A stretch of 20,000 bases of DNA from Vermamoeba vermiformis. Taxonomy: Eukaryota. The notes under the pieces were generated by a model. That model made no database searches and was not told where the DNA came from. It was given only the letters and a program-made list of their open reading frames with translations. The stretch covers positions 175,288 to 195,287 of the forward strand of contig JBEWZL010000119.1 in the NCBI GenBank assembly GCA_045837725.1, read 5' to 3'. A program made the position numbers and the translations under genes. Below, piece after piece: positions 8,010 to 11,000 of the stretch. Every line of letters begins with the position of its first letter. Position 1 is the first letter of the stretch.

Positions 8010-11000
8010 TTATAGTTCTTTGACAGTATTATCACAAGGCAAGCACAATTTTTCTTCTTCAGTGCTCGTTCTCTTCCAGCATCGAGGACACTTGTGATTA
8101 GCTGATTTTTCAACGGTAATCACATAATTGCCAAACGCGTCTATAAAATAAACGTTAAGTCATTTCCTTTTTTGGAAATAAAGTAATTTCGGCCACGTAC
8201 CTTCAACGACAATAGAGAATTCGCCTTGAGCTTTCAAAGTGTCAGTGACTTCAACGGTAGTGCCAGACACAACAAAAACTTCGTTCAAATGCTCGCCAAC
8301 GCTATCAATAGCCTTATGCAATGGCGAATCTGCCTTTAACTTGATTTTCACTGAAGCATCAAGTGCGGTATGAATGTGAGATTTCCTGTGTAGAATTTTG
8401 TTAGCGCGAAAAATGTTGAAAATCTTTCCGTACTCTTCGTTTTGCCTCGCGTGTTCGAGGATCTTGTTGACATTGGACTTCAATTCTTTCAACGCCAGCC
8501 ATTGTGCCTCAAGTTCGGGGTTGTTCCACTCGGGAGCCTAGTATAATGTTACATATTAGTAAGACTGTATATAATCACTACGGGCCGTGCTTACGAGGTT
8601 AAACCAGCCCTGTGCGTGGATACTCTCGGTGCCTTGTTTTTTAATTTCTTGTAAAATAGGCGAGTGCTGGAAGATATCTTCAGCCGTGTGACATAAAATA
8701 GGTGCTATGGCCTTGGACAGCGTGTCTAAGATCTTCAACAAGACAGTTTGACACGACTTTCTGTGCTGAGATTTCTTGGACATGGTGTAGAGCTTGTCTT
8801 TTGAAATTTCAAAGTAGAACGAGGACAAATCACCGGTGGCAAATTGAATGAGTTCTTTGTACACTATTTAAAAAGATAAATTAATATCTCGGCCTGCACA
8901 CAAGTGTCAAACTTTGACACGTGTCAAAGAAACGTCCGCGACAAAATTCTCAATATGCACTAGCGTTTTTCTTAATTAGGAAAACGGCATTGAGGTTTGA
9001 CAGGTGTCAGAATATGTCACACAAAGATATTTTTCACAGCGATATTTTCTTACCTTGACTGAAGTTAAATGACTCATAAGCCTCATCAATAGACTTGGCA
9101 AATTGAGTCAATCTATGCAACATGTATTTGTCCACGCTGCTCAATTGGTCGTACGGCAATTGGTCCTTGGCTGAAAAGTCGTTCAAATTGCCCAACAAAA
9201 ATCTGCAAGTATTGCGCAACTTTTTCAAATTGGACGATGTTGCCTCTAAATATGTAATTCGTTAATCTTTGCATTAGTATTAACTAGATTATTCTTAAAA
9301 TTACCTAATAAGGACTCGCTAATAGTGACGTCATTGCTATAATCAGTTGATGAGACCCAAAATCTCAACACGTCAACTCCATACGCTGGATTTTTCTTCT
9401 TGTCCTGATCGATGTTTCAATGAGTAGGTGCTGATTAACGGGTATGTCCAAAAAAGGAAATTATTGTAATTGGTGACTTACGTTGCCACCTTCAATAACT
9501 TGCGAAGGCTCAATGACATTGCCAAGTGATTTTGACATTTTTCTGCCGTGTTCATCTAACGTGAATCCGTGCGTCACAATTGTTTTGAACGGTGCTTTGT
9601 CGCGGACAGCAACTGTAAAAAAAAATGAAAAATCAGCGACTGAAAGTTACTCATAATAATGTTATAAGTCTAGTATTATAATTATATTATCGTACCTGAT
9701 GTTAAAAGTGAAGATTGGAACCAACCGCGGTGCTGATCCGAGCCTTCCAAGTAGATGTCGGCAACAATGTCGTTCAACACGGCTTCTTCGTCCTTCAATG
9801 AATCTCCTTTTTTGTACACGTCTGTCAGCACTGATGCCCATGAACAGCCGCTGTCAAACCACACGTCCATCGTGTCAGTTCCTTTGCGATATTTTCGACC
9901 TAAAGTAGTGCACTTTTAGCTAATATTTCCAAATTAGGAAATTGCGTAAGAATCTACATACCGTTGTTTCTATATTTAGGCGGCAAGAGCTCTTCGGTGC
10001 TCATCGTCCACCAGCAGTTCGTGCCGTGCTTGCGGATCAGTTCTTGAATGAACTCGATGGTTTCATCATTCTAAAAACAATGTAAGAACGTACTTCAATT
10101 GTTACATCATTCTTGAAAAGAATGATTACCATTAAATGTTCGTCAGTTTCAATGTCGTAGAAGACGGGAATAGGTACACCCCAGTGGCGCTGACGAGAAA
10201 TGCACCAATCATCGCGTGTCTTGAGCATGGCTGACAGGCGAGCACGACCTAAAACCCAACAAAAAAGAGTAAACGTACGGTCCCGAAACTAAACTAAAAA
10301 CAAAAAAAAAGAGAAAGAGCACAACACCTCCGATTCCCAGGTAGTCTCCTACCCCAGTACTAAGAAGGCCTTAACAAGCTTAACTTCGCTGATCGGACGG
10401 GAAGCGGTGCATTCTTGTTAGTGTGGTCGTGCCCAAGTCGCCAAGCAACTTCGTGTTCGGGTCACTCCTTCCACACATTCAAAGCACTCTCGCTTCCGTG
10501 GATCAGACCACGAAAAAGTGACACGTGTCATTGATTTTTTCGTGGCAAAATTAAGACTGCAATTTGTTTCACCGACGCTCTCATTAAGGATTTACCTGAA
10601 GGAGGCACTAACTGCACGTTATTCACTTCTTCAATGGCCGTGTCTTTGATGTGCGTTAGATCCGTGAACCATTGTTTGGTGGCACGCCAAATGACAGGTT
10701 TCTTAGTTCGCCAGTCATAAGGATACCGATGCGTGTAGTCTTCTTTCTTAAGCAATACGTTTCTATTTTGAAGTTCTTCAATGACGAGTCTGTTGCCGTC
10801 CTTGAAAATTTCTTTGCCTTCAAATTGAGGACCTGATAAGGGCGTATTAGATCACGTGCCGATTGCAAATACTAAAAATAGCACTTACCAGCCTCGCGAG
10901 TGAAAATACCATCATCATTAACTAAATACAAATAAGTCTGTTAGAGATCCGGATGATCTACAACAAATTTTGGATCGCGTACCTGGGCACAATACAGGAA

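What the first reader, a model, noticed from the sequence alone, without database searches (positions are those of the whole stretch)
10249..10595. Intact Pol III 5S rRNA gene nested, in sense orientation, inside an intron of the mitochondrial IleRS gene
Seen: the longest IleRS intron (347 nt, versus mostly 45-110 nt) holds a full-length 5S with all helices pairing, internal promoter elements and an oligo-T terminator. That T-tract lies only about 45-65 nt from the 3' splice site. Known: 5S genes are usually in tandem arrays, dispersed between genes, or linked to rDNA, SL-RNA, histone or snRNA repeats. Inference: a solitary functional 5S inside a housekeeping translation gene implies Pol II/Pol III co-occupancy, possible transcriptional interference or coupling, or release of 5S from the lariat.
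Basis: partly seen in the sequence, partly recalled or inferred. Interest (0 to 1): 0.78.

Follow-up and report, generated by a model that had tools for sequence, protein, structure and literature searches.

The report
Intact 5S rRNA gene inside an intron
A complete 5S ribosomal RNA gene with its own promoter box and terminator sits, in the same direction as its host, inside an intron of an isoleucyl-tRNA synthetase gene; it is one of many scattered copies, and in a related organism such copies often lie inside genes in this way.

Summary
Rfam finds one full-length 5S rRNA (105.8 bits, cut-off 38) at 10434..10316 on the minus strand. It lies in a 347-nt GT-AG intron (10595..10249) of a minus-strand, bacterial-type IleRS gene, in sense orientation. 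A T9 run follows 53-61 nt before the 3' splice site. A 98%-identical cDNA-like protein and a spliced contig from a second organism confirm the junction. That organism also has the 5S in this intron.

The copy is not solitary. The 5S part has several hundred times the word depth of its flanks in the DNA run, and the contigs carry many different flanks. 38 metagenome contigs hold 97-99% identical copies. They share a box (GTGAYCYRAAYA) at -31..-20 (24 of 27) and a T-run terminator (29 of 29). At least 10 of about 30 sites lie inside protein-coding genes, all in sense orientation and none antisense.

Best reading: an autonomous Pol III 5S gene of a dispersed family for which sense nesting in introns is common. 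There is no sign of coupling to IleRS. Whether this copy is active is untested: it has one private base, A63, at the family's most variable site. I found no description of intronic 5S genes in seven searches of the paper library.

The parts
10316..10434 (-). 5S rRNA gene, 119 nt, full length
   Evidence: RF00001, 105.8 bits, model 1-120. 118 of 119 bases match the majority 5S of the organism's DNA and RNA runs. The private base is at 10372 (RNA position 63, A instead of C).
10453..10465 (-). Upstream promoter-like box GTGACCCGAACAC at -31..-19 relative to the 5S start
   Evidence: locates it. GTGAYCYRAAYA lies exactly at -31..-20 in 24 of 27 copies that have upstream sequence. The same box at the same spacing appears in the loose-end consensus of other copies of organism A (table 7). 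That it acts as a promoter is inferred.
10296..10315 (-). Pol III terminator-like T runs (TT, T9 at 10310..10302, T5 at 10300..10296)
   Evidence: A run of T>=5 starts within 12 nt after the 5S in 29 of 29 copies that have downstream sequence.
10249..10595 (-). Host intron, 347 nt, GT-AG, phase 1
   Evidence: spliced contig of X5; protein P0001.
10596..10832 (-). IleRS exon upstream of the 5S intron
10130..10248 (-). IleRS exon downstream of the 5S intron ([30 protein letters not shown]...)
   Evidence: The next intron, 10129..10071, is confirmed by 5 RNA reads of X21 (joint 10070/10130).
8010..12548 (-). Bacterial-type (organellar) isoleucyl-tRNA synthetase gene, at least 20 exons; first exon and presequence not defined
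   Evidence: (Pfam PF00133, PF08264, PF09334 precomputed for P0001).
10508..10545 (.). 38-nt palindrome around TGACACGTGTCA in the 5' part of the intron; not part of the 5S unit
   Evidence: (I3: 10-nt arms, 100% complementary). A similar element lies in the 190-nt intron.

Best explanation
This is a genuine member of a high-copy, dispersed 5S rRNA gene family. It is a self-contained Pol III unit with three parts: an upstream box at -31..-19, the 119-nt gene with its internal control region, and a T9 terminator.

The unit lies co-directionally in an intron of the organellar-type IleRS gene. The host pre-mRNA is transcribed through it and spliced normally. The splice signals lie outside the unit: the 5' splice site is 161 nt upstream of it, and the branch region and 3' splice site are 53 nt or more downstream of the T9 run.

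The 5S is most likely made by Pol III on its own. The nesting reflects how this family is spread through a compact genome, with sense-oriented copies in introns tolerated or favoured. It does not indicate a functional link with IleRS.

Shown: identity, integrity, position, orientation, conservation of box and terminator, family size and recurrent sense nesting in a related organism. Inferred: Pol III transcription, promoter function of the box and activity of this particular copy.
For: (1): full-length 5S, 105.8 bits, no mispaired helix positions.

(2): the copy differs from the majority 5S at one base, 10372. G instead of the window's T is read by 74 of 76 X21 reads, 33 of 33 X23 reads, all 19 X1 contigs and the X5 contig; that position (63) is the most variable in the family (C 19, T 8, A 1 among 28 complete copies). 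In the Rfam structure line it lies in a 2-nt bulge.

(3): the box is at a fixed distance in 24 of 27 copies; a terminator follows in 29 of 29.

(4): in organism B (run X5) a 220-nt contig runs from exon through the 3' part of the intron into the 5S (10221..10434). Against the window it has 1 difference in the 119-nt 5S and 8 substitutions plus 4 indels in the adjacent 67 nt of intron (Fisher p = 0.0014). The 5S is thus constrained or homogenised while its intron flank drifts.

(5): X1 contigs tile exon-intron-5S edges without differences (records 2, 3 and 5). A second haplotype also carries the intron's 5' part (record 4).

(6): 38 of 38 metagenome loci hold 5S copies 96.6-99.2% identical to this one.

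(7): in 10 sites Pfam domains of one gene are split by, or truncated at, a same-strand 5S. These are L026 NUDIX_2 (pieces 39-123 upstream, 144-188 downstream), L013 HOOK, L027 DUF829, L008 Tuberin, L036 VID27, L018 thymidylate synthase, L034 CO_deh_flav_C, L021 acyl-CoA dehydrogenase, L023 W2 and L006 UCH. No site shows antisense nesting (binomial 10 of 10, p = 0.002).

(8) Of the ORFs tested near a 5S, 22 of 71 on the same strand and 3 of 39 on the opposite strand had Pfam hits at E <= 1e-5 (Fisher p = 0.0047; opposite-strand control).
Against: Nothing shows that this particular copy is transcribed. In RNA runs X21 and X23 no read lies on the unique intron parts (10195-10281 and 10485-10600 have depth 0). 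Only 2 of 76 X21 reads and 0 of 33 X23 reads carry the window's base at 10372.

Those runs are weak tests. They are paired 151-nt cDNA libraries whose exon reads differ from the window at many places, which suggests another strain, and IleRS exon depth is only 0-5.

The 18 nt between the box and the start differ from the consensus of other copies (window ...GCTTGGCGACTT; others end in ATTTC). No X1 contig carries the window's T at 10372. Rare variants are dropped from such contigs, so this base could equally be private or an assembly error.

The nesting statistics come from a related organism in metagenome contigs, not from this genome, which is not held. Eight of the ten nested calls rest on truncated domains or domain architecture rather than on pieces found on both sides. 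The same-strand ORFs were picked by eye, so the 22/71 against 3/39 comparison is not fully blind.
Confidence: 0.7

Rival explanations
1. Silent or decaying copy: a structurally intact but inactive 5S duplicate that happens to lie in an intron.
For: Private A63. The -19..-1 region diverges from that of other copies. No locus-specific RNA reads, and 2 of 76 plus 0 of 33 reads carry the private base.
Against: 118 of 119 bases are identical to the majority 5S. Box and terminator are intact and correctly spaced. The orthologous copy in organism B is conserved (1 of 119) while the adjacent intron has 8 substitutions in 67 nt. Position 63 varies freely among copies. The RNA libraries cannot see a 119-nt RNA well.
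Confidence: 0.2
2. Host-dependent production: the 5S is cut out of the IleRS pre-mRNA or lariat, as intronic snoRNAs are, so 5S output is coupled to host transcription by Pol II.
For: Strict sense orientation here and in 10 of 10 nested copies of the related organism. Many RNA reads over 5S copies run on into flanks, so 5S units are present inside longer RNAs (103 of 124 and 52 of 55 laid reads fit only partly).
Against: Every copy keeps an upstream box at a fixed distance and a T-run terminator. An RNA processed from an intron would need neither. IleRS mRNA is rare (exon depth 0-5). No 5S maturation pathway from introns is known (recalled, not checked).
Confidence: 0.05
3. Mobile-element reading: a 5S-derived SINE or retro-copy, or an intron created by insertion of the unit.
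For: Hundreds of dispersed copies. Relative P0002 (52% identical IleRS) reads ...NSGRTRLNAML... without interruption, so it has no intron at this position.
Against: The 5S is full length and is followed directly by a terminator. It has no unrelated body, no A-rich tail, and no flanking direct repeats at the unit's edges. The upstream box is outside the transcript, so simple retroposition would not carry it. The intron's 5' end is not shared with other copies.
Confidence: 0.04
4. Assembly artefact: a 5S repeat wrongly placed into the IleRS intron.
For: The 5S core (10334-10407) is covered only by high-copy contigs in X1. X1 may be the data the window was assembled from.
Against: X1 contigs bridge exon to 5S 3' end (10140-10333) and 5S 5' end to intron (10408-10497) without differences. 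An independent organism (X5) has one contig from exon through intron to the 5S start. The spliced form skips exactly 347 nt.
Confidence: 0.01

Closest known systems
Dispersed 5S rRNA gene families of Acanthamoeba castellanii, Neurospora crassa and Schizosaccharomyces pombe
   Same: 5S genes scattered singly rather than in tandem arrays or linked to rDNA. PMC1635290 (passages read) calls this rare and names these three. PMC10946416 (passages read) says 5S is 'very occasionally' dispersed.
   Different: Those passages do not mention residence in introns or an orientation bias relative to host genes. Here copy number looks like hundreds and many copies are nested. The original Acanthamoeba papers were not available, so their promoter details could not be compared.
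Pol III genes nested in Pol II gene introns (tRNA genes, SINEs, other intronic Pol III units)
   Same: An independent Pol III unit inside a Pol II transcription unit. PMC3509611 (abstract only, from the listing) reports frequent intronic Pol III units in human.
   Different: The nested gene is a 5S rRNA gene. Seven full-text searches found no paper describing intronic 5S genes. Interference of an antisense intronic SINE with its host gene is recalled from memory, not checked.
Intron-encoded snoRNAs
   Same: A small structured RNA gene in sense orientation in an intron of a housekeeping or translation gene.
   Different: snoRNAs lack their own promoter and terminator and are trimmed from the spliced intron. 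This unit has both.
5S-derived SINEs (SINE3/AmnSINE1 and others) and Cassandra elements
   Same: Dispersed, 5S-related, carrying the Pol III internal promoter (PMC10946416, table 2, passages read).
   Different: Those keep only a 5S-like head or promoter joined to unrelated sequence. This is a complete 5S with all helices, scoring 105.8 bits.
Dicistronic tRNA-5S genes of Yarrowia lipolytica
   Same: In 4 related loci a tRNA gene lies just upstream of the 5S on the same strand (L004, L006, L015, L020). PMC2566860: abstract only.
   Different: The window has no tRNA. In L004 the tRNA is followed by its own T8 run, and the 5S box lies in the 79-nt spacer, so the two genes are separate units.

Membership tests
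5S rRNA (Rfam RF00001) | Covariance-model score above the curated gathering score, over the whole model | tested here: met
   105.8 bits against 38, model 1-120 of 120, not truncated.
5S rRNA (Rfam RF00001) | All five helices form with standard pairs | tested here: met
   no position is flagged in the NC line of the alignment.
Functional Pol III 5S gene | Oligo-T terminator directly downstream on the gene strand | tested here: met
   TT, T9 and T5 within 20 nt. 29 of 29 related copies likewise.
Functional Pol III 5S gene | Sequence equals the expressed or majority 5S of the organism | tested here: inconclusive
   118 of 119 bases. The one difference (10372) is at the family's most variable site. 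The RNA runs come from a differing strain and are not small-RNA libraries.
Functional Pol III 5S gene | Family-specific promoter elements (upstream box; internal A box, IE and C box) | tested here: inconclusive
   The upstream box is present at the conserved distance. The internal region +50..+97 is identical to most of the relatives except at position 63. Function is not testable by sequence, and the A/IE/C box positions are recalled from Xenopus.
Functional Pol III 5S gene | Transcription of this copy; Pol III/TFIIIA occupancy | not testable with these tools
   No small-RNA or ChIP data. One search shows no locus-specific reads.
Intron-processed small RNA (snoRNA-like) | No promoter or terminator of its own; depends on host splicing | tested here: not met
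   Own box and T9 terminator.
5S-derived SINE / retro-pseudogene | 5S-like head joined to an unrelated body and tail; target-site duplications; no conserved upstream sequence | tested here: not met
   Full-length 5S. No flanking direct repeats at the unit's edges. Conserved upstream box.
Bacterial-type (organellar) IleRS as host | Class I tRNA synthetase core with anticodon-binding domain and C-terminal Cys cluster; best relatives bacterial | tested here: met
   (PF00133, PF08264, PF09334; hits of 900-1000 aa, mostly bacterial). (...CPRCWKR...CLPC at the C terminus). (nearest Atlas clusters are bacterial IleRS). A mitochondrial presequence was not tested.

The most novel reading that the evidence does not exclude
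In this lineage the 5S rRNA genes are not arrayed. They exist as hundreds of promoter-carrying single units, and a large share have settled inside introns of ordinary protein-coding genes, essentially always co-directional with the host. That would be an undescribed genome-wide arrangement of a ribosomal RNA gene family. It would be maintained either by selection against antisense units (head-on Pol II/Pol III conflict, or A-rich and poly(A)-signal-like antisense sequence in the host pre-mRNA) or by a transcription-linked way of spreading. A subsidiary possibility is that nested copies are expressed both by Pol III and from host introns.
Probability: 0.45. Interest if true: 0.65.

Novelty: new variant of a known kind. 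Interest (0 to 1): 0.45.

Why it matters
5S rRNA genes are textbook examples of tandem arrays, and scattered families are regarded as rare. A eukaryote in which many 5S genes sit inside introns, all co-directional with their hosts, would be a natural system for two questions. One is how Pol III units and Pol II transcription coexist on the same DNA. The other is how a multi-hundred-copy gene family stays uniform without arrays.

For annotation, it warns that an intronic 5S hit in such genomes is a normal gene location. It is neither a pseudogene flag nor a sign of special coupling with the host gene.

Tried and rejected
Whole-genome scan: no genome is held for this window, so copy number and the intronic fraction in this organism could not be counted directly.

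Earlier notes of the scan: nothing by place, sequence or words.

Taxon: unresolved.
- IleRS: the best named hit is Acytostelium at 48%, on a 105-aa piece.
- The Atlas gives only bacterial IleRS clusters.
- A P-type ATPase of locus L026 gave no named hit.
- Thymidylate synthase of L018 is a stand-alone form of about 300 aa. Its best named hits are animals at 80%, Arcella at 69%, and two EukProt entries at 75-77% that I recall as holozoan.
I first guessed Amoebozoa from gene content, but one search does not support choosing it.

Codon-usage scoring of ORFs separates coding from non-coding weakly (95th percentile of all ORFs is 6.1). I used it only to pick ORFs for Pfam, not as evidence.

Target-site duplications around the unit: none seen. 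The exon start GTCGTGCTC resembles the 5S 3' end GTTGTGCTC (D7). Among nine such short repeat families in 551 nt this is at chance level, so I dropped it.

Antisense poly(A)-signal idea: the relatives' promoter ends in TTTTATTTC, whose antisense contains AATAAA. The window's own unit has no AATAAA in antisense, so this stays a hypothesis.

RNA evidence for this copy: X21 and X23 gave no locus-specific reads and no clustered read starts or ends (table 6: none). I draw no conclusion on expression from them.

PMC230566 (Acanthamoeba 5S transcription) is not held.

Supplementary files of papers were not consulted.
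Full report
OBSERVATION

Rfam's covariance model finds one RNA gene in the 20-kb window: a full-length 5S rRNA at 10434..10316 on the minus strand. It scores 105.8 bits against a gathering score of 38, covers model positions 1-120, and has no mispaired helix position. ARAGORN finds no tRNA.

Read on the minus strand, the region is a many-exon gene for a bacterial-type isoleucyl-tRNA synthetase. It has the HIGH-motif exon ...PHVGHALNK..., the stretch ...[17 protein letters not shown]..., and a C-terminal CPRCWKR...CLPC.

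The 5S lies in a GT-AG intron, 10595..10249 (347 nt, phase 1), on the same strand as the gene. Two independent lines confirm the junction:
- A 709-aa protein from a 2191-nt contig, 98% identical over the 105-aa query exon, reads ...[16 protein letters not shown]... without interruption.
- A 513-nt contig of run X5 (a second organism label) joins 10594 to 10246, skipping exactly 347 nt with CT..AC ends on the plus strand.

I read 19 introns of the gene by hand (the last twelve guided by P0001 and tblastn). Their lengths are 57, 84, 52, 56, 110, 46, 89, 61, 56, 347, 59, 62, 83, 77, 59, 190, 57, 48 and 60 nt.

The gene strand continues after the 5S with TTCTC, T9 (10310..10302), G and T5. The T9 run lies 53-61 nt from the end of the intron.

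IS THE PLACEMENT REAL?

DNA contigs of run X1 bridge exon to 5S 3' end (10140-10333), 5S 5' end to intron (10408-10497) and intron to exon (10468-10613), all without a difference. A second haplotype-like contig (10 differences, 3 gaps, similar depth) also carries the 5' part of the intron. X1 may be the source of the assembly, so this is weak on its own.

Run X5 is a different organism label. It has one 220-nt contig running from the downstream exon (10221) through the 3' part of the intron to the first base of the 5S (10434). The 5S therefore sits in this same intron in a second lineage. Misassembly is very unlikely.

WHAT KIND OF 5S COPY IS IT?

It is not solitary. In X1 the 5S bins have summed word depths of 184,000-385,000 against about 450-600 for the flanks. 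138 contigs were laid, many running off into other flanks. The tool warns that this is not a copy number, so I take it only as 'hundreds, dispersed'.

The window copy differs from the majority sequence at one base. At 10372 the window has T; G is read by 74 of 76 X21 reads, 33 of 33 X23 reads, all 19 X1 contigs and the X5 contig. In the RNA this is position 63 (A instead of C), in a two-base bulge of the Rfam structure.

RELATED COPIES

An exact 30-nt pattern from the 5S found 38 metagenome contigs. All carry 5S genes 96.6-99.2% identical to the window's, with Rfam scores of 96.8-106.1 bits for the full-length ones. They come from a related organism: A at position 25 in 26 of the 28 complete copies, where the window has G.

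Among 28 complete copies only seven positions vary. Position 63 is the most variable (C 19, T 8, A 1, the last being the window), so the private base is unlikely to matter.

Two features outside the RNA are conserved:
- The motif GTGAYCYRAAYA sits exactly at -31..-20 in 24 of 27 copies with enough upstream sequence. The misses are L018 (one mismatch), L036 (shifted by one base) and L020 (none at that place). The window has GTGACCCGAACAC at -31..-19.
- A run of five or more T starts within 12 nt of the 3' end in 29 of 29 copies.

The same box at the same spacing appears in the loose-end consensus of RNA reads from other copies of organism A (...TGACCCGAACACAGCGTTGCAAAATATTTC|5S) and in an X1 flank (table 7). 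A box outside the transcript, kept at a fixed distance while the surrounding sequence differs, is what a promoter element looks like. That it is one is inferred.

Between the window and organism B the 119-nt 5S has 1 difference. The adjoining 67 nt of intron have 8 substitutions and 4 indels (Fisher p = 0.0014). The gene is therefore under constraint or is homogenised with its family.

IS AN INTRONIC, SENSE-ORIENTED 5S SPECIAL?

The 38 loci reduce to about 30 distinct sites. The duplicates are L002~L019, L005=L032, L008=L011, L009=L010 and L025=L036, plus L016~L036 and L021=L037 by identical flanks.

I scanned 110 flanking ORFs against Pfam, 71 on the 5S strand and 39 on the other.

In L026, pieces of one NUDIX_2 (CFIm25-like) domain lie on both sides of a same-strand 5S:
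- profile 39-74, 65-107 and 107-123 upstream;
- the 5S at 7176-7294;
- profile 144-188 starting 57 nt downstream.

In L013, HOOK_N (weak, E 3e-4) lies upstream and HOOK coiled-coil 89-205 (E 4e-15) downstream.

In eight further sites a same-strand domain is cut off at the 5S side, and the missing part cannot fit in the gap:
- L027, DUF829 177-242 of 242;
- L008, Tuberin 247-328 of 347;
- L036, VID27 189-301 of 356;
- L018, thymidylate synthase 25-168 of 266, E 1e-59;
- L034, CO_deh_flav_C of a xanthine-dehydrogenase-like gene;
- L021, acyl-CoA dehydrogenase middle and C-terminal domains;
- L023, the C-terminal W2 domain;
- L006, UCH 103-223 of 254. A weak UCH 225-254 lies downstream of the 5S in L028, which may be the other side of the same site.

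L004 (ankyrin repeats, tRNA, 5S, kinase domain) and L032 (Ctf18-like) are probable further cases. The remaining sites are unresolved.

No site shows a gene on the opposite strand spanning a 5S. The three strong opposite-strand hits are neighbours 448-742 nt away: L026 cation ATPase, L001 CCDC53 and L028 response regulator.

Ten of ten nested copies in sense gives a binomial p of 0.002. Strong Pfam hits occur in 22 of 71 same-strand ORFs against 3 of 39 opposite-strand ORFs (Fisher p = 0.0047).

Caveats:
- The first same-strand ORFs were chosen by eye, and the opposite-strand control was added afterwards.
- Eight of the ten calls rest on truncated domains or known domain order.
- These contigs are from a relative, not from the window's organism.

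HOW IT MOST LIKELY WORKS

The unit has everything the family's other copies have, whether nested or not: box, gene and terminator. The simplest mechanism is independent Pol III transcription from the box and internal control region, ending in the T9 run.

Pol II meanwhile reads through in the same direction and the intron is removed. The splice signals lie outside the unit. The 5' splice site is 161 nt upstream of the 5S. A likely branch region (...GTTTACTC...) and the TTTTAG 3' splice site lie in the last 40 nt.

Nothing ties the 5S to IleRS in particular. The hosts in the relative range from thymidylate synthase to tuberin.

The intron's extra length has at least two sources: the 5S unit (about 180 nt) and a 38-nt palindrome around TGACACGTGTCA. 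Relatives of that palindrome lie in the gene's other long intron.

A distant relative's IleRS (P0002, 52% identical) has no intron at this position but shares the next one. The intron, or its occupancy, is therefore not ancient. I cannot tell whether it was gained or lost.

Why the orientation bias exists is open. Selection against head-on Pol II/Pol III encounters, or against A-rich antisense sequence in host pre-mRNA, is plausible but untested.

WHAT IS NOT SHOWN

Activity of this copy is not shown. The two raw RNA runs are paired 151-nt cDNA libraries whose exon reads differ from the window at many places, which suggests another strain. IleRS exons have depth 0-5, no read lies on the unique intron parts, and only 2 of 76 (X21) and 0 of 33 (X23) reads carry the private base.

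Most reads on the 5S run on into other flanks (103 of 124 and 52 of 55 fit only partly). They come from longer RNAs or DNA of other copies, not from mature 5S.

The 18 nt between box and start differ from those of other copies. A silent copy therefore remains a real rival (about 0.2).

COMPARISON WITH WHAT IS KNOWN

Scattered 5S genes are described as rare, with Neurospora, S. pombe and Acanthamoeba as the examples (PMC1635290, passages read). PMC10946416 (passages read) says 'very occasionally ... dispersed'.

Intronic Pol III units in general are known (PMC3509611, abstract only). 5S-derived SINEs keep only part of the 5S (PMC10946416, table 2).

Seven full-text searches returned no paper describing 5S rRNA genes in spliceosomal introns. 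'Intronic 5S' occurs in no held paper. The library lacks most subscription journals, and supplements were closed, so this is not proof of absence. 5S pseudogenes in mammalian introns are commonplace (recalled).

The organism could not be named.

VERDICT

The interpretation needs correcting. This is an ordinary-looking member of a large dispersed 5S family in a lineage where sense nesting in introns is frequent. It is not a one-off coupling of 5S with IleRS.

The single locus is of modest interest. The family-wide pattern it points to, if it holds genome-wide, is a new variant of 5S gene organisation and worth a direct count.

Noticed in passing
window 8915-8926, 8998-9009, 10519-10530 (and 10508-10545): The palindrome TGACACGTGTCA occurs three times with up to 2 mismatches (expected 0.61; 5 of 200 shuffles reach 3). 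All three lie in the two longest IleRS introns. In the 5S intron it is the centre of a 38-nt hairpin. The flanks of the copies align partly (AATTTTGyCrCG...TGACACGTGTCA). This may be a small MITE-like element or a CACGTG-type binding site.
   Followed up: partly
L013, L026, L015, L009, L017, L008 and other loci, about 60-200 nt upstream of the 5S: In the related organism the upstream region is a tandem repeat of a unit of about 55 nt. Each unit begins with GGGCAC, the first six bases of the 5S, followed by the promoter box. About 320 nt (upstream region plus 5S) are 93-95% identical between copies. The window copy has a single box and no such repeats.
   Followed up: partly
L004 913-985, L006 7998-8069, L015 322-393 and 660-733, L020 388-461: tRNA genes lie 80-290 nt upstream of the 5S on the same strand in 4 of 38 loci. 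In L004 the tRNA and the 5S both appear to lie in one intron, between ankyrin-repeat and kinase exons. The tRNA has its own T8 run.
   Followed up: partly
window 10468-10613 and 10627-10783: Run X1 holds two versions of this locus at similar depth (about 460-486 against 362-392). The second has 10 substitutions and 3 indels in 146 nt of intron and 5 substitutions in 157 nt of exon. These could be diverged haplotypes or a recent duplicate.
   Followed up: no
window 8386-8433: A 48-nt intron of the IleRS gene is in frame and free of stops. If retained it would add 16 residues ([16 protein letters not shown]); protein P0001 lacks them.
   Followed up: no
protein P0002: A 52%-identical IleRS from a 64.6-kb contig has no intron at the SG|R position. 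It does have the next intron, read through in frame after ...DEHLM. The 5S-bearing intron position is therefore not shared with that relative.
   Followed up: partly
L020 13-131: One contig carries a 5S identical to the majority type of organism A (G25, C63). Its immediate upstream sequence is GC-rich and lacks the box at -31. A box-like GTGACCCGAT lies about 43 nt further upstream.
   Followed up: no
window 13042-13596, 14915-15379, 18410-19783: Neighbouring genes on the plus strand are a Lys/Glu-rich low-complexity ORF, an ankyrin-repeat protein (Ank_2, E 4e-18) and a Kelch-repeat protein with repeated ...WTWMGGS...YGTQGVPS... units (Kelch_4, E 7e-11). None is related to the 5S.
   Followed up: partly
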